A stretch of DNA of 64,000 nucleotides from Abditibacterium sp. (GCA_965199495.1 CBDASK010000003.1:4000001-4064000), one strand, 5' to 3'. Shown: positions 1 to 64,000, counted from the first letter of the stretch. Made by a program: numbers and translations. The notes: generated by a model from the letters alone, not told the origin.

Positions 1-680
1 ATTTTCGTCGTCATTTCCATTGTTTCGCCGCTCGATTTCACCACGCCAACGACGTGTTCGTCGGGCACGTTGACGTAAATCGTCTCGCCGTTAATCTGGA
101 ACGATTCGGGGTGCGAATCGAGTTCCAATCGCGCGCGCCAATCGGCCTGACGCGGCGCGGTCATGTTCAAATCGGCGGGCGAACGCGGCGGAGCAGCCAC
201 GCCGCCTTTGTCGGTTGGCAACAGCGCCTTAAGATCAATCGCTGACAGCGTGCCCGCGCCCGGCTCGCCGTTGCTGCCGACGTAAAGCGTTTGCGTCGGC
301 GCGTCGTAGCGCACGTTGTCGGAGTTGCGGCCCAGATCAACCCACGGCCCGGGTTTAAGCGTTTGCGCGTCGAACGAGCGCAGCGTGCCGTCGCCGCGAC
401 TGGCGACGAAAACGAAATCTGCGCCGGGCGCGTAAGCCAAACCCTGCGGTTCGGTCAACCCGGTGATTTCGGCGACGCGCCGTTTTTTGTTCAGATCGAG
501 AACCTCGACGCTGTGATTTTCCAGGCCAGCGAGCCACAATCGGTTGCGACGGGAATCGTAAGTAAAATGGTCAATGCGGCCCACAACGTTTGGCAATTCG
601 ATTTGGCCGACGGGCGTCAGCGATTGCGCGAAAGACGGCGCGGCGAAAAGGGCGAGCGCGAGTAGAGTTTTGCGAAACAT
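1..680 (-). CDS. Secreted YncE/YVTN-like beta-propeller protein (3' end runs off the window)
   Basis: Not in the ORF track. Manual translation from ATG at 680 gives [19 protein letters not shown] (signal peptide), then [30 protein letters not shown]...EPQGLAY...DNVRYD, typical of YncE-family propellers. Confidence 0.7.
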
Positions 681-737
681 CGCAAACAATTTTACCAATC
701 CGCTTGCCCGCCAAAACAACTTAAACTTCTCTCACCA

Positions 738-2804
738 ATGCCCGCTCCCGAACTTTCGTTTCATTCGCTCTATCGTCACGGCTTCGTGCGCACCGCCGTG
801 GCTGTGCCGCGCGTGCGCGTCGCCGACCCGCATTATAACGCCGCGCGCACGCTCGAAATGGCACGCCGCGCCGCCCAAAATGGCGCCGCTCTGGCGCTGT
901 TTCCCGAATTAGGAATCACCGCTTACAGTTGCGAAGATTTGTTCGGCCAAGACGCGTTATTGTCCGCCACTCTCGACGCGCTGGGCGAATTTATCGAAGC
1001 GACGCGCGAACTCAACACGATTTTACTCGTCGGCGCGCCCTTGCGCATCGGCCATCGTTTGTTCAATTGCGGCCTCGCGATTTACAAAGGTCAAATTTTG
1101 GGCGCCGCGCCCAAATCGTATTTGCCCAATTATCGCGAGTTTTACGAAGCCCGCCAGTTCGCGCCCGCCAGTGCAGCCACGGCGACCGAGATTACCGTTT
1201 GCGGCCAGACCGTGCCTTTTGGCGCGCGTCTGGTTTTCGCGGCGAATAACCGGCCCGATTTCTCGTTTTCGATGGAAATCTGCGAAGACGTGTGGACGCC
1301 ACTTCCGCCCTCGACTTTCGCGGCGCTGGCGGGAGCGACGGTTTTGTGCAACTTGTCGGCGAGCAATATCACGATTGGCAAGGCCGATTATCGCAAGAAC
1401 TTGTGCAGTTCGCAATCAGCCAAATGTCTGAGCGCTTATCTGTATAGCGCGGCTGGCCCCGGCGAAAGCACGACCGATTTGGCATGGGACGGCCACGCCT
1501 TAATCTACGAGAACGGCGATTTAGTCACCGAATCGCCGCGCTTTTCGCGCGACGAAGAGATTATTTTCGGCGATATTGATCTCGAACGTTTAACCCACGA
1601 ACGCGCGCGTTTGACGAGTTACACCGACACCATCGAGCGTTGGAAAGACGAACTCGCTCTCGTTCGCACGGTTAATTTCGATTGGCAAGCGCCGACCGAA
1701 ATCTTCGCATTAGAACGCGACATCGAACGCTTTCCGTTCGTGCCCAACGACGAGGCTTTGCGCGACGAGCGTTGCTATGAAGCCTACAACATTCAGGTTC
1801 ACGGCCTGATGAAACGTTTGGAATTTATCAAGGGCGAGAAAATTGTCATTGGCGTTTCGGGCGGCTTGGATTCGACGCACGCGCTGATTGTCGCCGCCAA
1901 AACGATGGACAGACTGGGTTTGCCGCGCACCAATATTCTGGGTTATACGATGCCGGGTTACGCGACATCGGCGGGCACCAAAAGCAACGCGCACGCTTTG
2001 ATGGAGGCGTTGGGCGTGACAGTTCACGAAATTGACATTCGTCCGAGCAGTTTGCAGATGCTCAAAGACATCGAGCATCCCTTTGGCGCGGGCGAACCGC
2101 AATACGATGTGACGTTCGAGAATGTGCAGGCGGGCGAACGCACGTCGCATCTGTTTCGATTGGCCAATTTTCAGGACGCCATCGTTTTGGGAACCGGCGA
2201 TTTGAGCGAATTGGCGCTGGGCTGGTGTACCTACGGCGTCGGCGACCACATGAGCCATTACAACGTCAACGCCAGCGTGCCCAAAACGCTGATTCAACAT
2301 CTGATTCGCTACATCATCGAAAGCGGCGAATTCGATACAGCCACCGGCACGATATTGCAAGCGATTCTCGATACCGAAATTTCGCCCGAACTCGTGCCCG
2401 CAGATGCCGATGGCGACGCGGGCATTCAGTCCACGCAGCAGAAAATCGGGCCATACGAGTTGCAGGATTTCAATTTGTATTACATCACGCGTTTTGGTTT
2501 CGCGCCCTCGAAAGTCGCGTTTTTGAGCTATCACGCGTGGAGCAACGCGCAAGATGGCGATTGGCCGCCCGGCTTTGGCGAAGCGGCGCGCAATCAATAT
2601 TCGCTCGCCGAAATCAAACATTGGCTCCAAGTCTTTTGTTTTCGCTTTTTCCAGATTTCGCAGTTCAAACGCTCGACCGTGCCCAACGGCCCGAAAGTCG
2701 GCAGCGGCGGTAGCCTCAGCCCGCGCGGCGATTGGCGCGCGCCGTCCGATGGCGAAAGCGTGGTTTGGCTCGACGAGTTAAAGCGCAACGTGCCGGACGC
2801 GTGA
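738..2804 (+). CDS. nadE: Glutamine-dependent NAD(+) synthetase
   Basis: N-terminal nitrilase-like domain ([22 protein letters not shown]) and synthetase domain ([25 protein letters not shown]). Confidence 0.96.
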
Positions 2805-2810
2805 TGAATT

Positions 2811-3776
2811 ATGAAACGTAAAATCAAAGAAATCGTGCTGTTGCTGGTGCCCGTGGCTGCTCTTGCCGTTTTGGTGCCGGGGGTGCGTTGGTTTAACAAT
2901 TGGCGCGCAGTTCCACGCATTGAAATGTGCATTTTGCGGCCCGCGACAGCGTGGGAAGCATCGCAGGGGGCGACGGTCGGTTACACCGCGCGCACGGTCA
3001 CACCTGACGCGGGCGGGCCGTTTTGGAGCGGCGGCATCGAAATTCGCAACGCGCGCGGCGAGAGTTGGGCGAGCGATGCGCCCGGTTGGGGGAAAATCGC
3101 GGTGCCGAGCGACGATGATTATCCCGACGATGGCGTCGCAAGCGACGATATTGGTTCGGCGGATAATCGTAGCGGCGGAACTATGGAGCTTCGCGGCGGT
3201 TTGAAGTGGAAGCGGGTCGCGGAAAAAGATGCGAGTGTTCAAGCGGAAATCTCGCTGTGGCCCAATGTCGATGATGGCGCCCCTTATCACGTTGAAAAGA
3301 CGCGAATTTTTACGCTGCAAAATGAGGTTGCGCCGCCCCGCTTCAAGGCTTTGCGCCGCTCAAATTTTCAACTGGAAAAGGTGCAACTAACTACAAGTGA
3401 TTGTGGACAAGGATGTGGCTTGAGTCATCGTCTTGAGTTTCTCCTTGAACGTTCAAGCTCTATTCCAAAACCGTCGCTTTGTGTGAGTAGCGTTGGGCAG
3501 GGTAAGTTAAGTTTCAATGCGAATAATCAGGTTCTCCCGATAATTTCTGCCCTTGAAGATGATTGGTTTAAGCCTGGCCGAATGATGTCAATCACGATGA
3601 CGTATGATGAAAACACCCCGTCGCTTCGTGACCAACCCGCTCATTTTATTGGCCTACTCAGCATTGACGATGGCTGGCCGCAAGAAATCCGCGTCGAATT
3701 ACCGCAAGGTTTGCCCACACAAATCGGCACGATCAATTTGCCATTTACCGCCCCGCTCGCGCCGTTGCCCAAATAA
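2811..3776 (+). CDS. Hypothetical protein with N-terminal membrane anchor
   Basis: 321-aa ORF 6 nt after nadE; basic N-terminus followed by a hydrophobic helix (IVLLLVPVAALAVLV). Confidence 0.6.
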   Translation: MKRKIKEIVLLLVPVAALAVLVPGVRWFNNWRAVPRIEMCILRPATAWEASQGATVGYTARTVTPDAGGPFWSGGIEIRNARGESWASDAPGWGKIAVPSDDDYPDDGVASDDIGSADNRSGGTMELRGGLKWKRVAEKDASVQAEISLWPNVDDGAPYHVEKTRIFTLQNEVAPPRFKALRRSNFQLEKVQLTTSDCGQGCGLSHRLEFLLERSSSIPKPSLCVSSVGQGKLSFNANNQVLPIISALEDDWFKPGRMMSITMTYDENTPSLRDQPAHFIGLLSIDDGWPQEIRVELPQGLPTQIGTINLPFTAPLAPLPK

Positions 3777-3777
3777 T

Positions 3778-4764
3778 CTAATTCAACGCGCGGCTCAGCC
3801 AATTCGCGCTTTGGCGCGGCGAAACTTTGTCGCGCAACCAATCGCGCAGTTCGAGTTGGGCTTCCAACTTGTCGTGAGCCGACAAAGAAGATTCGATTTC
3901 GATTGATAATTGAACGTCGGGCGCGACGGTTTCCCAGCGGCCCCGCCAACGTTCGCCCCACCGCGTTTTCGGGCGGTTGGTGGCCTTCTTCCAACTCAGG
4001 CCGACCAGAACGAAATGCGATTCCATCAGGCGCAACAATGGCTCGAAGGCGGGCGAAACTTGCAGATCGCTGGCGAACGACGACTGCCAATCCTGACTGA
4101 ACCAGCCGCCTTCGTTGATCGGACTGCTCGCCGCGAAACTGCGCCGAAACGCTCCGCTTTGCTGCGGGTGATTCGGATCGCGCCGTATGAAAATGCGCGT
4201 GACGAGCGCGAAAATGCGGTTCAATTCGGCTTTGTCGCCCGCGAGCCATTGGAGCGGAATGTCGCGGCGCTCGCCCGGTTCCATCGCGCGATTGATGAGC
4301 GCGTCGGCGGCGTGGCTGTAAGTGCGGCGCGTGGCGTTTTGAAAATGGTTGCCCCAAATATCGAGCGTTTTACGGTCACGATGCACCGGCGTTTGGTGCC
4401 AATCGCGCGCGAACCACTCGCGTAGCCAACCCGAATAATCGGCGCGATGAACGATGGCTAAAGTTGTCGAAATGTTGGTGCCGGGCAACGTCGGGCGATA
4501 AATCACGAAACGCCCATAATTGTCGCGTTCGATTTCCTCGCGCCAAAATTCGATCAGTTCGTCGCCACGCATTTCGCGTTCAAATTGCCGCATTATCGCC
4601 CACATCGGCGCGCGTTTTGGTTCGCGGAAATAAATCATGCCCTCGCGCATTTTGAGCAGGAACTGCCGTTTGCGCCCGGCAATTTCGAGTTCGGTTTGCG
4701 CCTGCGGAATCGTTGAAGCGCCCGCCCCGCGATGTTCCCACGGCAAAATCGAAAACTCACGCAT
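3778..4764 (-). CDS. Hypothetical protein, C-terminal 'SAHDKLEAQLELRDWL' family
   Basis: Start moved to ATG 4764 (MREFSILPW), 2 nt after the upstream gene's stop; shares a C-terminal motif with the ORFs at 12370 and 30003. Confidence 0.65.
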   Translation of the reverse strand: MREFSILPWEHRGAGASTIPQAQTELEIAGRKRQFLLKMREGMIYFREPKRAPMWAIMRQFEREMRGDELIEFWREEIERDNYGRFVIYRPTLPGTNISTTLAIVHRADYSGWLREWFARDWHQTPVHRDRKTLDIWGNHFQNATRRTYSHAADALINRAMEPGERRDIPLQWLAGDKAELNRIFALVTRIFIRRDPNHPQQSGAFRRSFAASSPINEGGWFSQDWQSSFASDLQVSPAFEPLLRLMESHFVLVGLSWKKATNRPKTRWGERWRGRWETVAPDVQLSIEIESSLSAHDKLEAQLELRDWLRDKVSPRQSANWLSRALN

Positions 4765-4766: not shown

Positions 4767-5906
4767 TCAATAACCCCGCGTCGCGCGCAAGGCGAGCGCG
4801 CTCAAGGGCGGAATTTGGTCGAAAAATCGCAGCGCGGGCAAAGTTAAATTGGGCACGATGAAAAGCGGTTGCAGCGTTTGCGCCCAGCTCAAACGGCGCC
4901 CGAATTCGCGGTGCCAACTGGCGCTGTAAAGCGGCGCGACATCGGCGCGCTTCAAATCTCCACAGATCGCCGCGCCCGTCGTGGCTGCGGCCAACTCGCC
5001 GCTGCGCACGGCCATCGCCATGCCGTCGCCCGAAAGCGGATGAATAGTGCCCGCCGCGTCGCCCGCGCGCAAAATACCGTCTTCGCCGATGGGTTCGCGC
5101 TTCTCGAACGAAACATTGGCCGTCGCCATCCACGCGAAATCGGGCGTCGAGTTCGCCGTCGCGCGGCCCAGCGCGCGGTTTTCGATGCCGATTTTATCCC
5201 AGAACTGCTGCGGTTTCAATCCACGCGTCCGTTCGTAACTCGCCAGCAAACAAGCGTTGGTTAAACCGCCGCCGATGCCGACCAAACCGCAATAACCGCC
5301 GCGAAACGGAAACATCTGCACTTCGCCACTCGGCACATTCGCGCCGCGCAGATGCGTTTTGAATCCGACGAAACGGCGCGCTTTTGCGCGCGCCGTTACT
5401 TCGTGATGGATGCGCGAATTGCGTCCGCTCGCATCAATGACGAAACGCGCCTCGATGAAACGTTCGATGGCTTTGCACGCGCCGAGGCCCAGACGGTAAC
5501 CGTTTCCCAACTTCTCGATATGACCAACGCGTGTTTGTTCCAACCCAAAAACGCTCGCTTCGGCGCAAGCGCACCACATCAAGGCGTCGAGTTTTTGGCG
5601 CGACAGAGCGAATCCGCTCGCGGGCAACGGCATCGCGCCACCCATTCGCTTTGACGTTAAAATGCGGGCGCGATCAACCGGAATCGCGCCCGCGTTTTCG
5701 ATGGAGGCGGTCACGCCCAAACGCGCGAATGTGGCGAGGCTTTCGGGCGAAACGAACTCGCCGCAAACTTTATGACGCCCAGCTTGTCCGGCTTCGATGA
5801 GCGCGACAGAGCAGCCACGGCGAGCCAGTGCCAGAGCCGCGCTGGTACCTCCGAGACCCGCGCCTATGACGGCGACATCGAAAAAGGGGACGGCGGGGTG
5901 AGACAT
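4767..5906 (-). CDS. FAD-dependent oxidoreductase (geranylgeranyl reductase/monooxygenase-like)
   Basis: DVAVIGAGLGG dinucleotide motif, HKVCGEFVS, DASGR, GDAAGTIHPLSGDGMAMA. Confidence 0.85.
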   Translation of the reverse strand: MSHPAVPFFDVAVIGAGLGGTSAALALARRGCSVALIEAGQAGRHKVCGEFVSPESLATFARLGVTASIENAGAIPVDRARILTSKRMGGAMPLPASGFALSRQKLDALMWCACAEASVFGLEQTRVGHIEKLGNGYRLGLGACKAIERFIEARFVIDASGRNSRIHHEVTARAKARRFVGFKTHLRGANVPSGEVQMFPFRGGYCGLVGIGGGLTNACLLASYERTRGLKPQQFWDKIGIENRALGRATANSTPDFAWMATANVSFEKREPIGEDGILRAGDAAGTIHPLSGDGMAMAVRSGELAAATTGAAICGDLKRADVAPLYSASWHREFGRRLSWAQTLQPLFIVPNLTLPALRFFDQIPPLSALALRATRGY

Positions 5907-6761: not shown

Positions 6762-8039
6762 CTAATCTCCCTTACGCACGACCAAAGCCGCGTTTTTTGA
6801 GCCGAATCCCAGACAATTGCACATTGCGACATCCACGTTGCCTCGGCGTGGCTGGTTGGCGATGTAATCTAAATCGCACTTTTCGTCGGGATTATCGAGA
6901 TTAATTGTCGCGGGCAAAGTGCCGGTTTGCATCGCCACAATCGTCGCGCCCAAACCCGCCGAACCCGAAGCGCCCTGTGGATGGCCGATTTGCGATTTAC
7001 TCGAACTCATCGGCACATCATAGGCGCGCTCGCCGAAGACCATCTTGACAGCGGCGGTTTCGAGCGGATCGTTCAGATCGGTCGCGGTACCGTGCAAATT
7101 GACGTAATCAATTTCGCTTTGATCTACGCCCGCATCGGCGAGCGCCAGCGTCATGGCGCGCGCGGCTTCGTCGGGCGTTTTGAGCGCGACGCGATGATAA
7201 GCCTCGCAGGTCGCGCCAAACCCGCAAATTTCGGCGATGATATTGGCGCCGCGCGCCAGAGCGGTTTCGCGTTCTTCGAGAACGTAAATCCACGAACCTT
7301 CGCCCAAAACGAAACCGTCGCGGTCGGCGCTAAACGGGCGCGAGGCATGAGCGGGATCGTCGTTCCAATGTGTCGGCACGGCGCGCATCAGGCAAAATCC
7401 GGCCATCATGCCGGGCGTGACGCAACCGTCGGCGCCGCCGACAATCAAACGTTTCTCGCGGCCATTGCGAATCAAATCGAGCGCGTAACCCAACGCGTCC
7501 GATGAGGAAGTGCAACCATCGGAAACCGTGTGCGAGCGTCCGTTGAAACCGTGCGCGATGGAAATTTCCGACGAGACCATGCCGGGAATTGAACTCGAAA
7601 TCGCGTAGGGCGATAAGCGCTTGTCGTGGCCGGTGAACCACAACGCGAATTGTGCCTCGGCAAAAGAGAAGCCACCGCCGCCGCTGCCCAGCAAAACGCC
7701 GGTTTCATGTTTCTGCTCGCGCGTCATTTCGCCAAGTCCGGCGCTTTGAAGCGCCTCGCGCGCGGCGCACAACGCCAAGGGCACGACGCGCGGCACGCGG
7801 TTTAAATCTTTGGGATCGAGATAAAGCGACGGATCGAAATCGGGCACTTCGCCCGCGACCTGACATTCGAGCGCGTCTATATGCGGGTTAAGCGGGACGG
7901 GGATATCAGGATCGAATAATGAAATGCGGCGAATCGCCGAAGCGCCCGAAGTCAGGCCATCTGTCCACGCTTTCCAGCCTACGCCAAAGGGCGAAACGGC
8001 GCCGATTCCGGTGATGACGGCACGATTTGGTATTGACAC
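6762..8039 (-). CDS. Beta-ketoacyl-ACP synthase II (FabF-like ketosynthase)
   Basis: RAVITGIGAVSPFG, active-site GCTSS, RPFSADRDGFVLGEG, HGTAT, KSQIGH, GFGSKNAALV. GTG start at 8039 preferred. Confidence 0.88.
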   Translation of the reverse strand: MSIPNRAVITGIGAVSPFGVGWKAWTDGLTSGASAIRRISLFDPDIPVPLNPHIDALECQVAGEVPDFDPSLYLDPKDLNRVPRVVPLALCAAREALQSAGLGEMTREQKHETGVLLGSGGGGFSFAEAQFALWFTGHDKRLSPYAISSSIPGMVSSEISIAHGFNGRSHTVSDGCTSSSDALGYALDLIRNGREKRLIVGGADGCVTPGMMAGFCLMRAVPTHWNDDPAHASRPFSADRDGFVLGEGSWIYVLEERETALARGANIIAEICGFGATCEAYHRVALKTPDEAARAMTLALADAGVDQSEIDYVNLHGTATDLNDPLETAAVKMVFGERAYDVPMSSSKSQIGHPQGASGSAGLGATIVAMQTGTLPATINLDNPDEKCDLDYIANQPRRGNVDVAMCNCLGFGSKNAALVVRKGD

Positions 8040-11937: not shown

Positions 11938-12360
11938 ATGCAAAATTCACCTCAACCGCCGCTTCCGCCGCCCAACAATACGTGGGGCGGCTCGTCCATC
12001 GGTTCGTCGCCTTCGATGTCGCCGAGCGAAGAGAAAAACTGGGCCGTCGCCACGCATTTGGCTTCGCTTTCCGGTTATCTGGGCATTCCGTTCGGTCACA
12101 TTCTGGGGCCGCTCGTCTGTTGGCTGATGAAAAAGGACAGCTCCAACTTTCTCGATGAAGTCGGCAAAGAAACCGTCAATTACAACATTAGCATTATTAT
12201 TTGGTTCATCGTTTGTATTCCGCTCTGCTTTCTCATCATCGGCTTTTTTATGTTGGGCGCGCTGGCAATAATGGACATCATCGTCACCATCATGGCCGCC
12301 GTGGCTGCATCGAACGGCCAGCAATATAAATATCCGTTGACGATTCGATTCATTTCGTAA
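11938..12360 (+). CDS. DUF4870 family membrane protein
   Basis: EKNWAVATHL...GPLVCWL.KK...GKETVNY...G..YKYPLTIRFI. Confidence 0.85.
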   Translation: MQNSPQPPLPPPNNTWGGSSIGSSPSMSPSEEKNWAVATHLASLSGYLGIPFGHILGPLVCWLMKKDSSNFLDEVGKETVNYNISIIIWFIVCIPLCFLIIGFFMLGALAIMDIIVTIMAAVAASNGQQYKYPLTIRFIS

Positions 12361-23588: not shown

Positions 23589-24765
<1,177 letters not shown>

Positions 24766-39689: not shown

Positions 39690-40346
39690 ATGAACTACGA
39701 TTTTCATATTCACGATGCGGTGCGCGTCGAGTATCGCGTGGCGACCGATGGTTCTTCATTTCCGCGCGGCTATTCGTGCATCGAGCGCGAAACGCGCAGT
39801 GCGGGCGGCAACGGCGCCGTGGCTGCTGTCACGCTGGCGCGTTGGGGCGCGCGCGTTTTGCTGACCGGCAACGCGATTGGCGACGACGATCACGGGCGCT
39901 TTTTGCTCAAACAACTCGCATCCATCGAAAATTTGACGTTTCAGGCCGATGTGCAACCAAACGTCGTCACACCTTATGCGATTTTGTTGCGCGCCGGGCA
40001 CTTCGACGTGGGCACGTTATTATCGCCCGAAGCGGCCAACATCAAGTTGCCTCGTTTGAGCCGCAACACGCACGATGCGCGCTTTTTCGGCGGCGCGTTC
40101 GAGGGCTGGGGCGAAACTGCGGGCACGGCCCAATTGGAGGCGGCGACGCAGGATTATAATTCGCTGGTCGGCGCATTAGCGGGCGTGGCGGCGATTTATG
40201 GTCAGTTGATGGAAAATCAGGTTTCGCACGCGCATCAGAACGCGCTGAGCGAGGCGGCCACCAGAATTTATGCCGAGCGTTTCGGCGGTTTGGATTCGAT
40301 TCCAACCTTGGAAGAACTGGAAGCCTATTTGCCCGTCGCGCGTTAA
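39690..40346 (+). CDS. Short PfkB-like carbohydrate kinase homolog
   Basis: GGNGAVAAVTLARWGA...AIGDDDHG N-terminal PfkB signature; no DTxGAGD motif. Confidence 0.6.
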   Translation: MNYDFHIHDAVRVEYRVATDGSSFPRGYSCIERETRSAGGNGAVAAVTLARWGARVLLTGNAIGDDDHGRFLLKQLASIENLTFQADVQPNVVTPYAILLRAGHFDVGTLLSPEAANIKLPRLSRNTHDARFFGGAFEGWGETAGTAQLEAATQDYNSLVGALAGVAAIYGQLMENQVSHAHQNALSEAATRIYAERFGGLDSIPTLEELEAYLPVAR

Positions 40347-54515: not shown

Positions 54516-56567
54516 ATGTTTAAATCATTTCTGCGCGCCACCCTTGTCGGCGCCAGCCTAATTTTCGTCATCGGCGGTTGCCAACCTAAACCGCCCGTCG
54601 AAACAGCGCACGCCGAAGGCGATGAACACGCGGAAGACGAACACTCCGAAGAAAGCCACAAAGAAGGCGAAGATCACGCGACCGAGGCGATTCATTTCGA
54701 GGGCGATGGCGCCCAGAAAGCGGGTATTTCCATCCAAACCATCACGGCGACGCCGCTCGTCACGGGCATTCCGGTGAGTGGCTCGATTGAAGCCAGCCCC
54801 AACCGCGTGGCCAATGTGTCTTCGATTGTGTCGGGGCGTATTGTCCAGCTCAACGTCGTCGCTGGCGAATCCGTGGACAAAGGCGATGTTTTGGCGATCA
54901 TCGAAAGTCGCGGCGTCGGCGAGGCGCAAGCCGCATTTGCAAGTGCGACGGCACGCTTGCAAAACGCGCGTTCCAATTTGCGCATTATTGAGTCGCAAGC
55001 GCGCGTGGGCGTCTATTCGCGCGCACCGCTCGAAAGTGCGCGCGCCCGCCTCAACGATTCCAGCGCCGATGTCAACACTGCGCGCACTGCGCTCAATACG
55101 GCGAGCGCAACTCAGCGTAATGTGAGTCAACAGGTGAGCGCGGGCAGTTTTGCTTCGCCCGCCATCGAAAATGCGCGGCGCGAAAAAGCTGCCGCTGATG
55201 CCGCGCTCAAAAGCGCGCGGGCCGAACTTTCGAGCGCGCAATCGAGCGTGAAATCTGCCGAATCCGAACTGGCGCGCCGCCGCGCTGTTGCGAGCGGCGG
55301 CGGTTATGGCGCGCGCGCCGCGCAAGTCGCCGCGCGCGATTTGGCGGCGGCACAAGCCGCGCGCGATGCCGCGCAAAGCGAAGTCGAAACCGCGCGTTCC
55401 AACCTCACGCGCGCGACGAAATTGGAAGCCGAAGGTCTGGTTTCGACGCGCGATTTGGAGTTGGCGCGCACGGCTTTAGAAAACGCGCAAGCGAAATTAG
55501 CCAGCGCGCGCGCCGAAATCGAGAGTGCGCAAGCCGAAGCCACGCGCCAAACGAAATTGTCGCAATCGAACGCGACTGGCAACGCTGAAATCGCCGCCGC
55601 CCAGACCGCTTTGACGAGCGCCCAATCCGCCGTGGCTGCTCGCCGCGCCGAGATCGAACGCGCGGGGCGCAATCTCAATTTGGCAGAAATCGCTTTGAAG
55701 CGCGAGGACGTAATTTTGCGCGCGGGCGTGGCCAACCGCCGCGAAACCGTCGGCGCGCGAAGCGCCGTTTCGTCCGCACAAACCGCGCTCAAACGCGCGC
55801 AGACGGCACAGCAAATCGCGCAAACGGTTTACAATCGCGAAGAGAAAATTTATCGTCAGAATCTGAACAATCAATCGCAGATCCAAACGGCGCGCGCGCA
55901 ACTCGTCAGCGCGCAAAGCGACGCCGATGGCGCGCGCACCGCGCTCCAATTGCTGCGCAGCGCGCCCGGTGGGAATGCGCGCGTGCCGATTCGCGCGCCG
56001 ATTGCTGGCGTAATCACCGAGCGCAACGCGGCGCTTGGCGAAGTTTTGAATGACGATACGCATCTGCTGACGATCTCGGATTTGTCGGTCGTTCACGCGG
56101 ATATGTTCGTGCCCGAACGCGAAATCGCTCGTGTGCAAATCGGTTCGCCCGTCGAAATTCGCGCCGACGCTGTGCCCAACCGCGTTTATCAGACTCGCAT
56201 CGAACTGATTCACAAAACGCTCGACCCCAAAACGCGCACAGTCGAAGTTCACGGCGAAATTGATAACGCCGACGGCCAATTGCGTTTGGGCATGGCGCTC
56301 AATGCGACGATTCAAAGCGGCGCGCAATCGCAATTGGGACTGCGCGTTCCGACCGAAGCGATTCAAGAATTCGAGGGCGAAAAAGTCGTCTTCATGCCTG
56401 CCGATGAGCCGAATACGTTCGTGAAACGCCCCGTCGAGATAGGAGCCACGGCGGGCGGCATGACTTTAATTAAAAGTGGTTTGTCGAGCGGCGATAAGGT
56501 CGTGGTGAAGGGCGCGTTCATGGTCAAGGCGCAGACGATGAAAGCGGAATTGGGGCACGAGGATTAG
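54516..56567 (+). CDS. czcB: Heavy-metal RND periplasmic adaptor (CzcB-like), elongated
   Basis: Lipoprotein Cys, His/Glu-rich N-terminus, SGRIVQLNV..G..V.KGD.L, IRAPIAGVI, D.KTRT, RVP..AIQ, GDKVVVKGAF. Confidence 0.85.
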   Translation: MFKSFLRATLVGASLIFVIGGCQPKPPVETAHAEGDEHAEDEHSEESHKEGEDHATEAIHFEGDGAQKAGISIQTITATPLVTGIPVSGSIEASPNRVANVSSIVSGRIVQLNVVAGESVDKGDVLAIIESRGVGEAQAAFASATARLQNARSNLRIIESQARVGVYSRAPLESARARLNDSSADVNTARTALNTASATQRNVSQQVSAGSFASPAIENARREKAAADAALKSARAELSSAQSSVKSAESELARRRAVASGGGYGARAAQVAARDLAAAQAARDAAQSEVETARSNLTRATKLEAEGLVSTRDLELARTALENAQAKLASARAEIESAQAEATRQTKLSQSNATGNAEIAAAQTALTSAQSAVAARRAEIERAGRNLNLAEIALKREDVILRAGVANRRETVGARSAVSSAQTALKRAQTAQQIAQTVYNREEKIYRQNLNNQSQIQTARAQLVSAQSDADGARTALQLLRSAPGGNARVPIRAPIAGVITERNAALGEVLNDDTHLLTISDLSVVHADMFVPEREIARVQIGSPVEIRADAVPNRVYQTRIELIHKTLDPKTRTVEVHGEIDNADGQLRLGMALNATIQSGAQSQLGLRVPTEAIQEFEGEKVVFMPADEPNTFVKRPVEIGATAGGMTLIKSGLSSGDKVVVKGAFMVKAQTMKAELGHED

Positions 56568-56877: not shown

Positions 56878-59800
56878 ATGATTAACACTCTCATCCGGTT
56901 CTCCATCCGAAACCGATTTTTCGTCGTGCTACTCGCGCTCGCACTTTTGGCGGGCGGCATTTACAGCGCCTTCAAACTGCCGATTGATGCCATTCCCGAT
57001 GTCACCAACAAGCAGGTGCAAATCAACACCGTCGTCGCGGGACTCGCGCCGCCCGAAGTTGAACAACAGGTCACGTTTCCGCTCGAAGTCGCGCTCGCCG
57101 GAATGCCAAAGCTCGTCGAAACACGCTCGATTTCGCAATTCGGTTTGTCCCAAGTCACGGTGATTTTCGAGGACAACGTCGATATTTACTTCGCGCGCCA
57201 ACTCGTTTTCGAGCGATTGCAAAGCGCCCGTGACGATTTGCCCGCCGGAGCGCAGCCCGAAATGGGGCCGGTCTCGACGGGTTTAGGCGAAATTTATTAC
57301 TTGTTCCTCGAAGGCCCGCAAACCTTGGAAGAGCGCCGCACTTTGATGGATTTCACCGTGAAGCCGCAACTGCGCACCGTGCCCGGTTTGAGCGAAGTCA
57401 ATACGTGGGGCGGGCAGGCCAAACAGTATCAAATCGTCGCCGACCCGCAGAAATTGGCGGCGCGCGGCCTGACGATTCGCGATTTGACCGAGGCGGTTGA
57501 GCGCAACAATCAAAACGCGGGCGGCGGCGTTTTGCACACGGGCGATGAGCAAGAATTCGTGCGCGGCGTCGGCAGAATCCAATCTATCGGCGACATCGAG
57601 AATATCGTCGTCAAAGCGCAGGGTGGCGTGGGGGTGTTCGTGCGCGATGTGGCGACGGTGAAAACCGGCGGCCAACCGCGTCAAGGCGCCGTCACGCGCA
57701 ATGGCAAAGGCGAAGCGGTGACGGGAATCACCATGCTTTTGCTGGGCGAAAACGGGCGCGTTGTCGTGGATGCGGTGAAAGATCGCGTCGAGAAAATTCA
57801 GAAAACGCTGCCCAAAGGCACTAAATTAGTGGGCGAACTCGACCGCAGCGATTTGATTAAACGCACCCTGGCAACCGCGATTCGCAATCTCGCCGAGGGT
57901 GGATTGTTAGTCATCGGCGTGCTGTTTCTGTTTTTGCTGCAACTGCGCGCAGGCCTCATCGTTTCGAGCGCGATTCCGCTCGCCATGCTTTTCGCCATTA
58001 TCGGCATGAACTACTTTGGCGTGAGCGCCAATTTGATGAGTCTGGGCGCGGTTGATTTCGGTTTGATCGTGGACGGCGCCGTCATTATCGTCGAAAATAT
58101 CGTGCGAAGATTAGCCGAATCGCGCCACCATCTGGGGCGGGACTTGACCGAAACCGAACGATTGGACGAGATATTCGAGGGCGCCGTCGAAGTGCGCCAA
58201 TCCTCACAATTCGGCGAAATGATCATCATCGCGGCGTATTTGCCGATTCTATCGCTGGTCGGCATCGAAGGCAAAATGTTCAAACCGATGGGCTTGGTCG
58301 TCATCATGGCGCTCGTTGGCGCATTGATATTATCAATGACGGTGATTCCGGCGTTGTGCGCGTATTTTCTCAAAGCGGCGCCCGAACGCGAATCGCCGGT
58401 TGTCAAAGTCGCTTCCAAATTTTACGCGCCCAGTTTAAATTGGGTTTTGGGACATCGCTGGCCCGTTGTTGGTGGCGCGGTCGTATTTATCGCGTTGTGC
58501 GCGTCGCTGTTCCCGCGCTTGGGGTCGGAATTCATCCCGCAATTGGACGAAGGCTCGATGGCGATTCAGATCGCTTATCCGCCTTCGATGTCCATCGAAT
58601 ATGCAGCCACGCGCGCGACGGCGTTCGAGAAAAAATTGCTGGCTGAGTTTCCCAACGAGATCAACACGGTCTTCACGCGCATTGGGCGCGCCGAAGTCGC
58701 CACCGATCCGATGTTGCCGTCGCAGCAAGATATGATTATCACGCTCAAGCCGCAGAGCGGGTGGAGCAGGGCGAAATCGAAAGACGAGTTGGTGGGCGAA
58801 ATGGCCGAAGTCGCCGAGAAAATGCCGGGCATGGGCGCTTCGATGGCGCAACCGATTCAGATGCGCATGAACGAACTCATCGAAGGCGTCGGTATCCGCA
58901 GCGAATTGGGCATCGAGCTTTACGGCGACGACTTAACTATTCTGGCGCAAAAAGGCGCCGAAATCGGCAAAGTGTTGCGCACCGTTCCCGGCAACGCCGA
59001 CGTGGCTGTCGAGACGACCGAAGGTTTGCCGGTTCTCAACATTGACATCCGCCGCGACGCCGTCGCGCGCTATGGCATCAACGTCGCCGATGTGCAACAC
59101 ACGATTCAAGCCGCCATTGGCGGCGAAGAAGTCGGCGAAGTCATCAAGGGCAACGCGCGTTTCCCGATTGCCGTGCGCCTGGAAGAACGCTTTCGCCGCG
59201 ATCCCGAAGCCATCGCGCGCATCGAAATTCCCGCGCCCGATGGCTCGACTGTCGCGCTGGGCCAACTCGCTTCGATCCAATCCACGCAAGGCCCAGTGCA
59301 GATTTCGCGCGAAAATGGCAGTCGTCGCGTCGTGATTCAGGCCAACATGCGCGGGCGCGATTTGGGTTCGTTTGTCGAGGAAGCGCGTGCCAAAATCGAG
59401 CGCGAAGTTTCGCTTGCTCCCGGTTATCGCGTCGAATACGGCGGCACTTACGAGAAGTTGCAGAGCGGGCGCGCGCGTTTGGCGCTCATCGTTCCGGCGA
59501 CGTTCGGGATTATCTTCATCCTGCTATTCACTACTTTTGGCAGCGTGAAACAGGCGATTTTGGTCTTCACCGGCATTCCGTTCGCCATCACCGGCGGCAT
59601 TCTGGCGCTGATGATGCGCGGCATTCCGTTCTCGATGAGCGCGGCTGTGGGATTCATTGCCCTCTTCGGCGTGGCCGTGTTGAACGGATTGGTTCTGGTC
59701 AGCTTCATCAACCAACTGCGCGCGCGTGGTGAAAGCGTGCGCGATGCGGTCGAAAAAGGTTGCGCACTGCGTTTGCGCCCGGTTCTGATGACGGCGGCAG

Positions 59801-59991: not shown

Positions 59992-61278
59992 ATGAATACC
60001 AAACCCACGCTATGGAACCGTTTCTGCGCCAGCGCGACCGGCGAAGTTTCCGCCGATACGCTCGAAGCCTATCGCCGCGCCAGCCTCGCGGTTTACGATG
60101 CGCTCGAACATTCCGAAACGCACCGCGCGGGCGCCAAAGCAGATGGCAAAAACGCCTGGACTTTGCCCAAATCCACGCAGGCCGAAATGCTCTGCACCTG
60201 GAACGCGTTCGTTTTGCAAACGCTGGGCGACCGCTTTCTGGACGCCGATTACGAAGGCGATCCGCACACCGTCGGGTTCGTGCCAGCGATTACGTCCGAT
60301 CAGATTTTGAGTTTTTATACCCAAGTCGAAGGCTGGCTCAACCGCGCGCAACAGGCGCACTTCAATCCCGACTATAAACTCGACGTATCTGTGCCCGCCG
60401 CCTTGCCCGCGTGGAGCGAAGTCGAGCCGTGTCCCAACGCGCATTTAGTCGGAATGCTCGAAGCGATGCGCGCCGTGCGCGATCACACCGAAGCGGCGAT
60501 TTTGTTCCTCCAAGATTCGCCCGCACAGACCGACGAACAAACCAAAAACGCCAACCAGATTCGCCAAGTTCACGCGTCGGCCCAAACCAAAGCGCGCTAT
60601 GCCGAAGATATGATGAACGGCAGCAATCCGACGCGCGATGTGCATGAACGCGTCGAGGAACACGTCAAAGAAGCGGTCGAAAGTTATTATTTGCTGGGCC
60701 AATTATTGGCGATGCCCGAACTGGCGAACAATGTTTTGAATCCGCCGAAACCACTGCCGCTACCAGCCACGCCGCCTTTGTCGCCGCCTTCGCCGTTTTA
60801 CGCGCCGTCGCCCAATCAATTCGCGCCACAAAACGCGCAATTGGCGTTGCCCAACTCGCCCGATTTCGATATGTGGTGCCTGACGGCGCCCGAAGCGCAA
60901 AGCAAATTTGCGCAAGACCGCGAAGCGGTGCGCGCGATTAAAACGTTGTGGCAACTCGATCCCGATCCGCGCCGCACCGTTGAAATTCAAAGCGAAATTA
61001 ATGCGGCCTTGGCGCGCGGCGAAATCGGTTATGCGAGCGACCAATGGGGCAAAAAGTTGGGCCATTTTTTCTGCGCGCCGTGGGGCAGCGTTTACCTTGC
61101 CAAACGCCCAGTGACAATCGGCGGCACACGCATGATGACGATGCAACAATTCATCTTCAACGTAACGTGCGAAGGCGTTAATCTGGGCGCGCCCTTCGAG
61201 CGCGAAATTATGACGGGCAATTTCACGCCGACCTCAAAATTTGAATACGGCGACCCCAACGAAGCGCCCGATCATTGA
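59992..61278 (+). CDS. Hypothetical two-domain protein with a Pro-rich linker
   Basis: 428-aa ORF 12 nt after czcA; helical N-domain, PPKPLPLPATPPLSPPSP linker, C-domain GHFFCAPW. Confidence 0.7.
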   Translation: MNTKPTLWNRFCASATGEVSADTLEAYRRASLAVYDALEHSETHRAGAKADGKNAWTLPKSTQAEMLCTWNAFVLQTLGDRFLDADYEGDPHTVGFVPAITSDQILSFYTQVEGWLNRAQQAHFNPDYKLDVSVPAALPAWSEVEPCPNAHLVGMLEAMRAVRDHTEAAILFLQDSPAQTDEQTKNANQIRQVHASAQTKARYAEDMMNGSNPTRDVHERVEEHVKEAVESYYLLGQLLAMPELANNVLNPPKPLPLPATPPLSPPSPFYAPSPNQFAPQNAQLALPNSPDFDMWCLTAPEAQSKFAQDREAVRAIKTLWQLDPDPRRTVEIQSEINAALARGEIGYASDQWGKKLGHFFCAPWGSVYLAKRPVTIGGTRMMTMQQFIFNVTCEGVNLGAPFEREIMTGNFTPTSKFEYGDPNEAPDH

Positions 61279-61375: not shown

Positions 61376-61383
61376 CGCATTTG

Positions 61384-61455: not shown

Positions 61456-61465
61456 ACCGTTATGA

Positions 61466-61536: not shown

Positions 61537-61544
61537 CACCTCTC

Positions 61545-62876
61545 ATGACCGATTTGGAAATCACGCTCGCCACATTGCAACAATGGGCCGATGATCCGTC
61601 TTTGATTGACGACAACGCGCGCGCCAAATCTCTCGTCGCCAAAATCCATCGCGAAGGCGCGCGTAATACCAACAAAGCCGCGCGCGATGCGCGACGCAAG
61701 CGAGACCGCGCGAAAATCGAGGCGACGGGCCGCGTGCAAATCGCCACCGATACGACGCGCGCCTTGCCCGCGATTGCGTCATCAAATAATCAACTCGAAC
61801 GCGCGCGCTTTTGTCCGATTTGTCGCGCGCAATTTTCGCAGTTGCATCATTTTTATCACGCTTATTGCCCGCCTTGCGCCGCGTTTAACTGGGGAAAACG
61901 CGAGCAAACCGCCGATTTGTCGGGGCGCATCGCATTAATTACGGGCGGGCGCATCAAAATTGGTTTCGAGTGCGCTTTGAAGTTGTTGCGTGCTGGCAGC
62001 CACGTCGTCGCCACAACGCGCTTCGCCCGCGATGCCGCGCGGCGTTATTCTCTGCAACCCGACTTTGAAGAATGGCGCGACCGCCTCGAAATCGTCGCGC
62101 TCGACTTGCGGTTTTTGCCAGAAGTCGAGCATTTTTGTGCGCATCTCAATCGAACGTTTTCGCATCTCGATATTACAATCAATAACGCCGCGCAAACCAT
62201 CGCGCGCCCACCGCAGTTTTACGCGCACTTGCGCCAAGCGGCGGGGCTTGCGCCCTCTTCCAATCGTGAATCTGCCTTCGCATCAGGATTGGAAGAGGAC
62301 GCAAGCCCCGATCCCGTAAAACTCGCGCTGGCTTCCTTTTTTCCGCCCGACCAATTCGATGCCGACGGCCAGCAACTCGATTTGCGCCCGCGCAATTCGT
62401 GGACGGCGCGTTTGGACGAAATTGAAACGCTCGAAGCCGCCGAAAATTACGTCGTCGGCGCGCTCGCTCCGTTCGTTTTGACGGGCCAATTGCGCGCGCT
62501 TCTTAAACGCAGTCCGCACGCACGCAAATTTGTGATTCAGGCGTCAGCGATGGAAGGCAATTTCTCGCGCCAGAGCAAAACTTCGCGTCATCCGCAGACC
62601 AACATGACCAAGGCCGCGCTCAATATGTTGGTGCGCACCTCAGCGCCCGATTTAGCGCGCGACGGAATTTATTGTAATGCCGTAGATACCGGCTGGATCT
62701 CCGATGAAAATCCGCATCCGACAGCGCAAGATTTGCGCGCCGATGGTTTCGTGCCGCCGCTCGATTGCGTGGATGGCGCCGCGCGTTTACTCGTTCCTAT
62801 TTTTAGTGGGTTGGACGAATTGCGCGAACCGATTTTTGGTTGTTTTCTGAAAGATTATCGCGCGCATTCTTGGTGA
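61545..62876 (+). CDS. Atypical SDR-family oxidoreductase with an N-terminal Cys4 zinc-ribbon-like segment
   Basis: CPIC...YCPPC, ALITGGRIKIG, INNAAQT, SAMEG.F, HPQTNMTKAALNM, AVDTGWI; ATG 8 nt after the third tRNA-like gene. Confidence 0.85.
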   Translation: MTDLEITLATLQQWADDPSLIDDNARAKSLVAKIHREGARNTNKAARDARRKRDRAKIEATGRVQIATDTTRALPAIASSNNQLERARFCPICRAQFSQLHHFYHAYCPPCAAFNWGKREQTADLSGRIALITGGRIKIGFECALKLLRAGSHVVATTRFARDAARRYSLQPDFEEWRDRLEIVALDLRFLPEVEHFCAHLNRTFSHLDITINNAAQTIARPPQFYAHLRQAAGLAPSSNRESAFASGLEEDASPDPVKLALASFFPPDQFDADGQQLDLRPRNSWTARLDEIETLEAAENYVVGALAPFVLTGQLRALLKRSPHARKFVIQASAMEGNFSRQSKTSRHPQTNMTKAALNMLVRTSAPDLARDGIYCNAVDTGWISDENPHPTAQDLRADGFVPPLDCVDGAARLLVPIFSGLDELREPIFGCFLKDYRAHSW

Positions 62877-62880
62877 AAAT

Positions 62881-63000
62881 TTAGTCACAAAGGACTACAA
62901 AGAAGCTGGAGGAAATTTGGAATACGAAGAAAATGCTTTCTTGCTCACTTGAAAATTTCCTCCAGCTTCTTTGTAGTCCTTTGTGCCCCTTTGTGGCTAA
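62881..63000. repeat. Inverted-repeat element (TTAGTCACA...TGTGGCTAA)
   Basis: cacaaaggactacaaagaagctggaggaaattt ... aaatttcctccagcttctttgtagtcctttgtg; same family as 6614-6751. Confidence 0.85.
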
Positions 63001-63008
63001 AATAAATT

Positions 63009-64000
63009 ATGTTTCAACCGCCCATTTCCTGTCCCGTCGTGCGCGTGCCTGCCGTCGTGCCGTGCGACGCACGCGAACTCGATGGACTGATCGGGTTTTT
63101 AGAATCTGATGCGCCCATCGAAGAAATTCAAGCGTTCGCGCGTGGCACTTTGCTACCCGATGGCCGACTCGATTTATGCAAACAGAGCGTCGGCGCCGTC
63201 GGTTGTGCGCGCATTGTCGAAGCGCTCCAAAATAATTCGCGCGTCAAAAGCGTTTTGCTCGGCACCGACGCTATCGGCGACCAAGGCGTGTTTGCGGTCG
63301 CGCAATTGGTTGAATCGAACCCGAATCTGGAAGTGATTTATCTCGGTTGCAACAACATTTCATCCGTCGGCGCCGCAGAAATCGCGCGCGTTATGGCGAA
63401 TAATTCGAGCGTCAAAGGTTTGTGGCTCAAGCGCAATCCCATCGGCGGCGACGGCGTGGCTGCCCTCGCGGCGATGCTCCAAACCAACGCGCATTTGCAA
63501 ATTCTCGACATCGTGAATTGCGGTTTTAGCGTCGCATCGTTCGCGCGATTGTGTGAAACGTTGCGCACTGATAATCGCACTCTGACCCGGCTTTACACGG
63601 GCGGCAACGGTTTGGGCGCCGTCAGCGCGGCGCATTTGGGCGAAGTTTTGAACGAGAATAATGCGCTGCAAGGTCTCTTTTTAAACGTTGGCGATCTGGG
63701 CGACGAAGGCACGCAATTTCTCGTCGAAACCTTGAAACCAAGCGCGAGTTTGCGCGATTTGGGTTTGGGTTCTAACGCTATCGGCATCGCCGGTTTGCGC
63801 GCCTTGTCCGAAAATTGCGCCGCGCTCGAATCGCTCGATTTGGGACGTGCCGCTTCGCAAACGGCGCTGGGCGCGAGCGGCAACGATTTCGCGGGCGGCG
63901 GCCAGTTATGCGCCGATTTGATGGATTCAGCGCGCGTTTTACGGCGTTTGAATTTGCGAGGAACGCGATTGAAAACCGACGATTTCGCACCGATATTTGA
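63009..64000 (+). CDS. Ribonuclease-inhibitor-like leucine-rich repeat protein (GALA-like; 3' end runs off the window)
   Basis: Not in the ORF track. Manual translation: MFQPPISCP...GTLLPDGRLDLCKQ, then ~28-aa repeats VKSVLLGTDAIGDQGV, LEVIYLGCNNISSVGA, VKGLWLKRNPIGGDGV. Confidence 0.8.
   Translation, partial: MFQPPISCPVVRVPAVVPCDARELDGLIGFLESDAPIEEIQAFARGTLLPDGRLDLCKQSVGAVGCARIVEALQNNSRVKSVLLGTDAIGDQGVFAVAQLVESNPNLEVIYLGCNNISSVGAAEIARVMANNSSVKGLWLKRNPIGGDGVAALAAMLQTNAHLQILDIVNCGFSVASFARLCETLRTDNRTLTRLYTGGNGLGAVSAAHLGEVLNENNALQGLFLNVGDLGDEGTQFLVETLKPSASLRDLGLGSNAIGIAGLRALSENCAALESLDLGRAASQTALGASGNDFAGGGQLCADLMDSARVLRRLNLRGTRLKTDDFAPIF

What the first reader, a model, noticed from the sequence alone, without database searches (positions are those of the whole stretch)
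194..63462. Octamer CGTGGCTG/CAGCCACG over-represented across the window with no strand bias (DUS- or HIP-like signal)
Seen: by manual scan, at least 39 exact copies. There are 21 CGTGGCTG (e.g. 797, 2852, 4311, 4980, 12300, 28203, 36275, 47190, 54403, 63455) and 18 CAGCCACG (e.g. 194, 1174, 5812, 14222, 23129, 27353, 39363, 45695, 58604, 61997), plus many copies of the core AGCCACG/CGTGGCT. My rough zero-order expectation at an eyeballed ~57% GC is about 3. Nearly all copies lie in CDSs, often via GCA/GCT Ala codons although GCC/GCG look preferred here. Established: Chi and KOPS are strand-polarised, whereas Neisseria/Pasteurellaceae uptake sequences are non-palindromic and occur in both orientations. 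Inference: this may be an undescribed DNA-uptake or recombination signal; dprA, a competence gene, is in the window.
Basis: partly seen in the sequence, partly recalled or inferred. Interest (0 to 1): 0.72.

Follow-up and report, generated by a model that had tools for sequence, protein, structure and literature searches.

The report
Strand-tiled DNA word in Abditibacterium
An Abditibacterium genome carries about 3,000 copies of one short asymmetric DNA word, spread evenly along each strand and kept by selection inside genes. It most resembles the self-recognition tags that Neisseria and Haemophilus use to take up their own DNA, and relatives carry other versions of such words.

Summary
Confirmed and wider than reported. 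The window holds 40 CGTGGCTG copies (2 expected). The genome, an Abditibacterium, holds 3,091, 10x above a protein-preserving shuffle, in all six frames. Consensus CGVCGTGGCTGC; the core GTGGCT is strictly required. It is unpolarised (51.6% leading) and no RecBCD/AddAB was found, so it is not Chi or KOPS. Same-orientation copies avoid each other over ~0.76 kb; opposite ones are independent. Copies are conserved at silent positions, scarce on the two small contigs, and some arise as multi-base substitution patches. Three of 13 genus genomes carry it. Seven other family genomes carry AGTAC-based words, six of them palindromic. None of the 10 motif genomes has AddAB; about 10 motif-free relatives do. 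Best reading (0.5): a DUS/USS-like directional self-DNA signal acting in uptake or recombination. Rivals: break-repair signal, REP-derived element, methylation mark. No receptor was identified, and intergenic depletion differs from DUS. My searches found no publication; this scan noted similar words in other bacteria and viruses (unchecked).

The parts
194..63462 (.). Dispersed motif, consensus CGVCGTGGCTGC, strict core GTGGCT; 40 octamer copies, part of 3,091 genome-wide
194..201 (-). motif copy, CDS
797..804 (+). motif copy in NAD synthase gene
1174..1181 (-). motif copy in NAD synthase gene
2852..2859 (+). motif copy, CDS
4311..4318 (+). motif copy, CDS
4980..4987 (+). motif copy, CDS
5812..5819 (-). 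motif copy, CDS
6847..6854 (+). motif copy in FabF-like gene
12300..12307 (+). motif copy, CDS
14222..14229 (-). motif copy in gcvPB
17793..17800 (+). motif copy in gcvT
18824..18831 (+). motif copy in argD-like gene
20223..20230 (+). motif copy, CDS
20692..20699 (-). motif copy, CDS
23129..23136 (-). motif copy in menaquinone-pathway gene
24528..24535 (+). motif copy in tgt
26003..26010 (+). motif copy in argB
26312..26319 (-). motif copy in pyruvate carboxylase gene
27353..27360 (-). motif copy in pyruvate carboxylase gene
28022..28029 (-). motif copy in pyruvate carboxylase gene
28203..28210 (+). motif copy in pyruvate carboxylase gene
31186..31193 (-). motif copy private to G000 (5 mismatches in G011; about 2 changes from the outgroup state)
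31674..31681 (+). motif copy, intergenic by my gene calls; no significant hairpin
32370..32377 (+). motif copy in a small ORF
35269..35276 (-). motif copy in dprA, absent in G011 (4 mismatches)
36086..36093 (-). motif copy in dprA, shared with G011
36275..36282 (+). motif copy in dprA, shared with G011
39363..39370 (-). motif copy at a gene start, scored intergenic
39818..39825 (+). motif copy, CDS, shared with G011
43696..43703 (-). motif copy in folC
44486..44493 (+). motif copy in folC
45695..45702 (-). motif copy, CDS
47190..47197 (+). motif copy, CDS
54403..54410 (+). motif copy in TolC-like gene
55631..55638 (+). motif copy in RND adaptor gene
58604..58611 (-). motif copy in CusA/CzcA gene
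59001..59008 (+). motif copy in CusA/CzcA gene
60764..60771 (-). motif copy, CDS
61997..62004 (-). motif copy, CDS
63455..63462 (+). motif copy, CDS
35162..36400 (-). dprA (context only; three motif copies inside)
   Evidence: TIGR00732 above cut-off; PF02481
32606..35044 (-). topA (context; used to place the genome among Abditibacterium)

Best explanation
The word is a directional self-DNA signal that works like the uptake sequences of Neisseriaceae and Pasteurellaceae. An unidentified protein reads GTGGCT plus flanks in one orientation while linear DNA is taken up or prepared for homologous recombination. Site-bearing alleles are favoured (drive plus selection), so sites fill permissive codons until each strand has one about every 3 kb. 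A second same-orientation site within ~0.76 kb adds little; an opposite one is read independently. Shown: excess, strict core, conservation, orientation-specific spacing, no polarity, dialects, substitution origin.
For: 10x excess with proteins fixed, in all six frames. One-off variants of the six core positions sit at background (O/E 0.3-3.7) while flank variants stay 5-46x enriched. Rare codons are kept inside sites between G000 and G011: GCT 62/70 against 252/547 elsewhere, GCA 21/24 against 90/313. Singles at 60-500 bp: same orientation 124/365.8, opposite 408/384.9, p 2e-33. Close same-orientation pairs contain a weak member, repulsion does not depend on shared length, and generic direct repeats are enriched. 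Real DUS and USS loci show the same trend (22/35.3 same, 40/33.5 opposite, pooled p 0.015). Small contigs 0.08-0.09/kb against 0.65. Dialects and hairpin pairs in relatives. Excess of multi-mismatch private sites, 19 of 71 with >=4 against 4.5-5.7 expected, as reported for DUS (PMC2397512 section 9). Pilus operon, secretins, ComEA, ComEC and DprA are present.
Against: No receptor found, and competence genes do not track the motif. In G000 short core spacers hold fewer copies than genes (0.32 against 0.73/kb), the reverse of DUS/USS (PMC2817400); only 28 of 136 close inverted pairs are intergenic. Flipping DUS did not change meningococcal plasmid transformation (PMC3388099). Six relatives use palindromes that need both halves, which is HIP-like. 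G004 intergenic pairs come with longer spacers (median +176 against +12 bp), which is REP-like. The orientation effect is not significant in G004 (p 0.28) or G017 (p 0.38) with the DNA held. Earlier scan notes report strand-wise spacing in viruses, which take up no DNA (unchecked).
Confidence: 0.5

Rival explanations
1. Intracellular break-repair signal: an unpolarised Chi substitute in lineages without RecBCD/AddAB. A resection or RecA-loading factor stops or loads at the first correctly oriented site; two-ended breaks need both strands tiled.
For: No AddAB-like pair in 10 of 10 motif genomes; AddB-like proteins in 10 of 17 motif-free ones, and a second UvrD_C hit in all 10 motif-free genus members (Fisher p 0.003). 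The spacing fits first-site-wins logic. In cyanobacteria recC occurs only in marine Synechococcus/Prochlorococcus (PMC5101192), which lack HIP1 (PMC13756078 section 8). A Dna2-like nuclease-helicase occurs in all 3 octamer genomes and in G017.
Against: Within the genus the pattern is one phylogenetic split. Seven motif-free genomes also lack an AddB-like hit. The Dna2-like gene is missing in the 6 palindrome genomes, present in motif-free G016 and split in G011. No compositional or strength asymmetry 5' against 3' of sites. Pasteurellaceae carry both USS and RecBCD.
Confidence: 0.2
2. REP-derived word: the motif is the core of a REP/REPIN element; a Y1 (RAYT) nuclease or its ssDNA products insert hairpins between genes and overwrite short patches in genes, and close direct pairs are purged because they recombine.
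For: The G004 form starts with GTAG (REP tag, recalled) and half its copies form intergenic doublets in lengthened spacers (23 against 99 spacers, p 9e-7). 251 of 287 G017 copies are intergenic, mostly in 25-bp hairpins. A G000 RAYT-like gene at C3:3721449 is flanked by repeats that contain GTGGCTGC. Multi-base gains exist.
Against: 91% of G000 copies are single and coding, without indels (gap rate 0.05 against 0.05). G017 has 2,567 copies and no Y1_Tnp hit. G000's RAYT-like genes have their own flanking repeats that do not match the motif's flanks. Y1 genes occur in 25 of 27 genomes regardless of motif.
Confidence: 0.15
3. HIP1-like methylation mark: a resident methyltransferase marks the core and repair or uptake reads the methyl group; one-strand methylation of an asymmetric hexamer would make each orientation independent.
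For: Strict hexamer core with A at position 5 of AGCCAC, as in MmeI/BREX-type targets (recalled). Palindromic AGTACT dialects in relatives. HIP1 raises transformation in a methylation-dependent way (bioRxiv 2024.09.10.611283 abstract).
Against: No methyltransferase shared by and confined to motif genomes was seen among PF01555, PF00145, PF07669 (27 genomes each), PF02384 and PF18135 (5 genomes each). Five of six AGTACT genomes have no C5 enzyme. The one syntenic type ISP-like gene is interrupted in G004, matches only a partial frame in G011, and has a full-length counterpart in motif-free G009. Orthology was mostly judged from lengths and scores, so this is not exhaustive.
Confidence: 0.1
4. 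Classical Chi or KOPS, or a by-product of codon and peptide usage.
For: About 73% of coding copies fall in two frames encoding VAA/AAT-type peptides.
Against: Leading-strand share 1,592/3,083 against 295/379 for the KOPS-like word in the same genome; no RecB/AddA/AdnA; 10x excess with proteins fixed; at control level in 24 of 26 family relatives.
Confidence: 0.02

Closest known systems
DNA uptake sequences: DUS of Neisseriaceae, USS of Pasteurellaceae (DUES)
   Same: Asymmetric 9-12 bp word, thousands of copies, both orientations, more even than random, frame bias, tripeptide skew, dialects among relatives, inverted pairs in terminator-like hairpins, multi-mismatch gains (PMC2817400, PMC2397512). 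Same-orientation avoidance is weakly seen in DUS/USS loci too.
   Different: Other phylum and unrelated sequence. 91% coding in G000, with intergenic depletion. Some dialects are palindromes. No ComP-like receptor identified; uptake untested. The motif tracks absence of AddAB.
HIP1 (GCGATCGC) of cyanobacteria
   Same: About one site per 1-1.5 kb in genes and spacers, conserved beyond codon needs, variant words in some lineages, proposed uptake and Chi-like roles. Hosts lack full RecBCD. The AGTACT dialects are palindromic octa- to 14-mers.
   Different: The window's word is not a palindrome and tiles each strand separately. No cognate methyltransferase was found.
Chi (RecBCD/AddAB) and KOPS (FtsK)
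   Same: Asymmetric octamer read in one direction; first-site-wins spacing is Chi-like logic (inference).
   Different: No replichore polarity; no RecBCD/AddAB/AdnAB in the genome.
REP/REPIN elements with RAYT
   Same: Intergenic inverted doublets with a GTAG start in G004, hairpins in G017, longer spacers.
   Different: G000 copies are single, coding, indel-free and conserved at silent sites; no RAYT is flanked by the consensus.

Membership tests
DUS/USS | Strong excess of an asymmetric word not explained by codons | tested here: met
   2,820 against 277
DUS/USS | Both orientations equally, no replichore bias | tested here: met
   51.6% leading
DUS/USS | More even spacing than random | tested here: met
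   per-strand CV 0.85; same-orientation O/E 0.34 at 60-500 bp
DUS/USS | Scarce in mobile or foreign DNA | tested here: met
   C1 2 in 24.7 kb, C2 6 in 64.6 kb; many of the longest gaps are low-GC; lowest-GC3 octile 0.47/kb against 0.64-0.79
DUS/USS | Under-represented in coding DNA, many copies in terminator hairpins | tested here: not met
   G000: coding 0.73, spacers 0.32/kb; 28 intergenic pairs. Met in G004, G014, G022, G017
DUS/USS | Competence machinery present | tested here: met
   pilB/T/C/D with pilins, secretins, ComEA, ComEC, DprA; not specific to motif genomes
DUS/USS | Sequence-specific receptor (ComP-type pilin) | tested here: inconclusive
   Four operon pilins occur with and without motif; one alignment viewed (partly cut) showed no motif-specific domain
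DUS/USS | Site enhances uptake or transformation | not testable with these tools
   needs culture
Chi | RecBCD/AddAB/AdnAB present | tested here: not met
   single UvrD/PcrA; AddA and AddB of G012 and G009 find only PcrA in G000
Chi/KOPS | Replichore polarity | tested here: not met
   51.6% against 77.8% for the KOPS-like word
HIP1 | Palindrome | tested here: not met
   asymmetric in G000, G004, G011; palindromic AGTACT in 6 relatives
HIP1 | Cognate methyltransferase | tested here: inconclusive
   none shared and exclusive in five families searched; specificity not predictable here
REP/RAYT | Mainly extragenic hairpins spreading by insertion | tested here: not met
   G000 91% coding, no indel excess; met for G004 spacers and G017
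REP/RAYT | RAYT flanked by the cognate repeat | tested here: inconclusive
   6 G000 Y1 loci inspected; one has flanking repeats sharing only GTGGCTGC; G017 has no Y1 hit

The most novel reading that the evidence does not exclude
Abditibacteriaceae run one sequence-guided recombination system whose word has switched between asymmetric (strand-tiled) and palindromic (HIP-like) dialects. It stands in for AddAB-Chi, is lost where AddAB is present, and writes new sites into genes as short multi-base patches.
Probability: 0.22. Interest if true: 0.9.

Novelty: new variant of a known kind. Interest (0 to 1): 0.7.

Why it matters
Uptake sequences are described for two proteobacterial families and the function of HIP1 is still open. 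A third lineage with asymmetric and palindromic dialects, motif-free sisters and an inverse link to AddAB offers a natural experiment for finding the protein that reads such words. The orientation-specific spacing, weakly visible in DUS/USS loci too, suggests these signals are read directionally, which can be tested at once on complete Neisseria and Haemophilus chromosomes. The word also reshapes the proteome, changing amino acids at permissive sites.

Tried and rejected
Codon or peptide artefact: rejected. Chi/KOPS: rejected. Generic deletion avoidance between direct repeats: rejected; motif-free 11-16 bp repeats are enriched 1.3-2.2x below 1 kb, and the same-V share of close pairs equals that of far pairs, 0.36 against 0.37. 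Compositional or strength asymmetry around sites: none. An apparent + strand run of the G017 word in the listing was a listing effect; 400 kb fetched show both strands. Candidate words in L016 (one tandem array) and G007 (repeats in one gene) are local. Dna2-like helicase-nuclease: 5 of 31 genomes, partial match only. Methyltransferases: no exclusive candidate. Pilin comparison: nothing motif-specific seen. The G004 16-mer in viral contigs: 25 single hits, highest locus 9 octamers in 20 kb, not pursued. The two intergenic window copies form no significant hairpin (z 0.07, 0.24). Sequencing runs: no RNA holder listed; laying 4 runs gave mixed relatives' contigs and nothing usable. Compensating gains near lost sites: 4 same against 2 opposite of 59, too few. 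More DNA from motif-free genomes could not be had, so their negative status for unknown words rests on 8.7-90 kb each. No protein folding or complex jobs were run.


Full report
Observation. The window holds 40 exact copies, 22 CGTGGCTG and 18 CAGCCACG, against 1.99 expected. It lies at G000:C3:4000001-4064000 of a 4.81 Mb, 3-contig genome. The closest topA relatives are titled Abditibacterium or Abditibacteriales (91-96% best segment). Gene calls are from my own hexamer-trained ORF caller (3,992 genes, 83% coding), so coding shares are approximate.

What the word is. Genome-wide there are 3,091 copies, the top 8-mer under order-4 and order-5 Markov models. Flanks extend it to CGVCGTGGCTGC; CGVCGTGGCTG alone has 2,113 copies. 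Against a background with the motif masked, changes in the six positions GTGGCT fall to O/E 0.3-3.7, while flank changes stay 5-46x enriched. Coding copies number 2,820 against 277 when every protein is fixed and synonymous codons are shuffled, with excess in all six frames. Encoded tripeptides exceed their reversals for AAT (1.49/0.81), VAA (1.53/0.72), SHV (1.86/0.82) and DVA (1.39/0.66), but not PAT (1.33/1.40) or QPR (1.02/0.97).

Distribution. C3 has 0.65 copies/kb; C1 and C2 have 2 and 6 copies (0.08-0.09/kb), and many of the longest gaps are low-GC. Core genes hold 0.73/kb and short core spacers 0.32/kb. Replichores are clear: dnaA at 2.028 Mb, and the KOPS-like word GGGNAGGG (recalled) is 295 of 379 co-oriented, yet the motif is 1,592 of 3,083. 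Within 40 bp, the 7-mer core forms 136 inverted and 15 direct pairs against about 71 expected each; 28 of the inverted pairs are intergenic, several with long stems and T runs.

Directionality. Same-orientation copies avoid each other (O/E 0.1-0.4 below 500 bp, recovery length 759 +/- 87 bp) while opposite copies are flat near 1; four control octamers show no such pattern. For singles at 60-500 bp the counts are 124/365.8 and 408/384.9. Surviving close same-orientation pairs contain a weak member (mean minimum flank score -1.6 against 1.14), repulsion ignores the length of shared identity, and motif-free direct repeats are enriched. This points to a protein that reads site strength and orientation. 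As a control I took viral-contig loci chosen for an inverted DUS or USS pair (82 and 74 loci, reduced to 382 and 632 kb of non-redundant DNA, hairpin pairs removed). They show the same trend: 12/18.2 and 10/17.1 same, 23/19.2 and 17/14.3 opposite; p 0.09 and 0.08 alone, 0.015 pooled. These are prophage regions and the test is weak. In G004 and G017 the effect was in the same direction but not significant.

Evolution of sites. Against G011 (188 orthologues, 86% nucleotide identity) 108 sites are shared, 72 private and 17 set aside for gaps; rare codons are kept inside sites (GCT 62/70 against 252/547). Against G004 only 34 of 154 G000 sites are shared, and indels near sites are at background. 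Of 71 private sites in the rerun, 19 differ at 4 or more of 8 bases (4.5-5.7 expected) and 5 at 6 or more (0.4 expected). Nine of the 29 cases with 3 or more mismatches had an outgroup row: two look like gains by 6-7 changes, two are gains needing about 2 changes, one is a loss, three are unresolved, and one row was G011's own locus. So patch-like gains exist beside ordinary steps. PMC2397512 section 9 (read whole) reports the same bimodality for DUS. SPDIR, in which ssDNA patches anneal at microhomologies and which RecBCD, RecFOR and DprA suppress (bioRxiv 2023.11.22.568220, abstract), is a candidate mechanism; that link is inference.

Relatives. The octamer is about 8-11x above its reversed control in G000, G004 and G011 and near control in the other 24 of 27 family genomes; the 11-mer is not strongly enriched in 34 genomes outside the family. 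G004's commonest form is GTAGGACGTGGCTGGTGTCG, about half of its copies intergenic and often in inverted doublets. AGTACT occurs about once per kb in 6 of 31 class genomes: G022, G024, G026, G020, G018, G014, as GAGTACTC, CGAGTACTCG or CAAGTACTTG palindromes that need both halves; GAGTACTC is also evenly spaced. G017 has 2,567 AGTACGGTCG, 251 of 287 sampled copies intergenic, mostly in 25-bp hairpins. Whether these words are homologous to the octamer is not shown. G061-G065 are treated as G004, G011, G022, G014 and G026 on size and contig figures. No dispersed word stood out in the remaining family genomes, on 8.7-90 kb each. A pilT/pilC/pilD/pilin tree of 17 genomes puts the three octamer genomes in one clade, sister to the rest of the genus.

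Machinery. G000 has a pilB-pilT-pilC-pilD operon with four pilins, several secretins, ComEA, ComEC and DprA. These are also in motif-free relatives (ComEA 25 of 27; operon genes in all 20 regions fetched). ComEC was searched only in 5 motif genomes. G000 has one UvrD/PcrA and no AddA, AddB or RecB. AddB-like proteins occur in 10 of 27 family genomes, all motif-free, and a second UvrD_C hit in all 10 motif-free genus members; the pair was checked in G012 and G009. The 10 motif genomes are 63-95% complete, so single absences are uncertain, and kin are not independent. Joining two papers, recC is confined to marine picocyanobacteria (PMC5101192, passages), which lack HIP1, though Gloeobacterales lack both (PMC13756078 section 8). 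A search for HIP1 with RecBCD, Prochlorococcus and absence listed three papers; I saw no statement of this link in the passages I read.

Mechanism. The features fit a directional signal under recombination-linked drive: a reader moving along linear DNA uses the first correctly oriented site, so a new site pays off in proportion to its distance from the last same-orientation site and ignores opposite ones. I put 0.5 on incoming DNA (DUS-like), 0.2 on chromosome break repair without AddAB, 0.15 on a REP-derived origin (G004 spacers with the motif are a median 176 bp longer) and 0.1 on methylation. These are not fully exclusive. Against the DUS reading stand the coding bias in G000, the palindromic dialects, the missing receptor and the lack of an orientation effect in a meningococcal plasmid assay (PMC3388099, passages).

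Literature. Seen as passages: PMC2397512, PMC2817400, PMC4390886, PMC5861425, PMC5101192, PMC3388099, PMC1939737, bioRxiv 2025.10.24.684340. Abstract and sections 8 and 12: PMC13756078. Abstract only: bioRxiv 2023.11.22.568220 and 2024.09.10.611283. No supplements were read; survey tables of over-represented words could list this genome. Searches for Abditibacterium with uptake sequence or genome, for the octamer itself, and for armatimonad with motif terms showed no description of it; the library lacks most subscription papers. REP/GTAG, MmeI/BREX and KOPS details are recalled. Earlier scan notes describe DUS-like words in other bacteria and strand-tiled words in crAss-like phages and giant viruses (unchecked), and none for this genome or its look-alikes.

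Verdict. A real, selected, directional genome-wide word in an unexplored phylum. It works like an uptake sequence, but membership is unproven and one DUS trait fails in this genome. New variant of a known kind; interest 0.7.

Noticed in passing
G000 whole genome: Very strong avoidance of many palindromes: CGGCCG, CTCGAG, CCCGGG, CCGCGG, GAGCTC, GGGCCC, TTCGAA, CACGTG, GCCGGC at 0.01-0.04 of expectation; CTAG 0.04, GTAC 0.11. About a dozen restriction-modification-type methyltransferase genes.
   Followed up: partly
G022, G024, G026, G020, G018, G014; L007, L011, L013, L380: HIP-like AGTACT-centred palindromes about once per kb, evenly spaced where tested, while AGTACT is nearly absent (1-21 copies) in many sister genomes.
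   Followed up: partly
G017; L379, L414-L433: 2,567 copies of AGTACGGTCG, mostly as 25-bp intergenic hairpins with A/T tails, in a genome with no Y1 transposase hit.
   Followed up: partly
L146-L227 and L260-L333 (viral-contig loci): Known DUS and USS show same-orientation avoidance at 60-500 bp with opposite copies unaffected (pooled p 0.015); I did not find this reported.
   Followed up: partly
G000:C3:4111365-4115630 (L334:11365-15630, -): 1,421-aa protein with N-terminal PD-(D/E)XK nuclease and C-terminal SF1B helicase, Dna2-like; in 5 of 31 class genomes.
   Followed up: partly
G000:C3:861101-880963 (L360): Type IV pilus operon with unusually large pilins (291-620 aa) and two ~1,300-aa PilX-like proteins; the ~600-aa pilin is only 48% identical in G011, where the motor and platform genes are 92-97%. 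48 prepilin-motif hits genome-wide.
   Followed up: partly
G000:C3:21687, 1577938, 1873853, 3721449: Four RAYT-like Y1 genes, some with their own flanking inverted repeats; separate repeat families of about 294, 134 and 93 copies, the 134-copy one a ~29-bp near-invariant unit that may be a CRISPR repeat (not tested).
   Followed up: no
G000:C3:368041-371163; L114: Type ISP-like methyltransferase gene intact in G000 but interrupted at the syntenic place in G004, where a C5 methyltransferase hit lies inside the gap; G011 shows a similar arrangement.
   Followed up: partly
G000:C2 and C1: C2 (64.6 kb) has a long co-oriented gene array with a 2,401-aa gene, phage-like; C1 (24.7 kb) looks plasmid-like. 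Both lack the motif.
   Followed up: no
window 45133-50187 and 50338-52341 (+): A 1,684-aa protein with weak peptidase and FtsX-like permease matches, followed by a 667-aa protein with no family hit.
   Followed up: no
G000:C3:4115908-4117038: Bacterial topoisomerase IB gene next to the Dna2-like gene.
   Followed up: no
G016, G019: The 11-mer is about 2x its reversed control in these motif-free genomes (102/53, 76/41); may be composition or a remnant.
   Followed up: no
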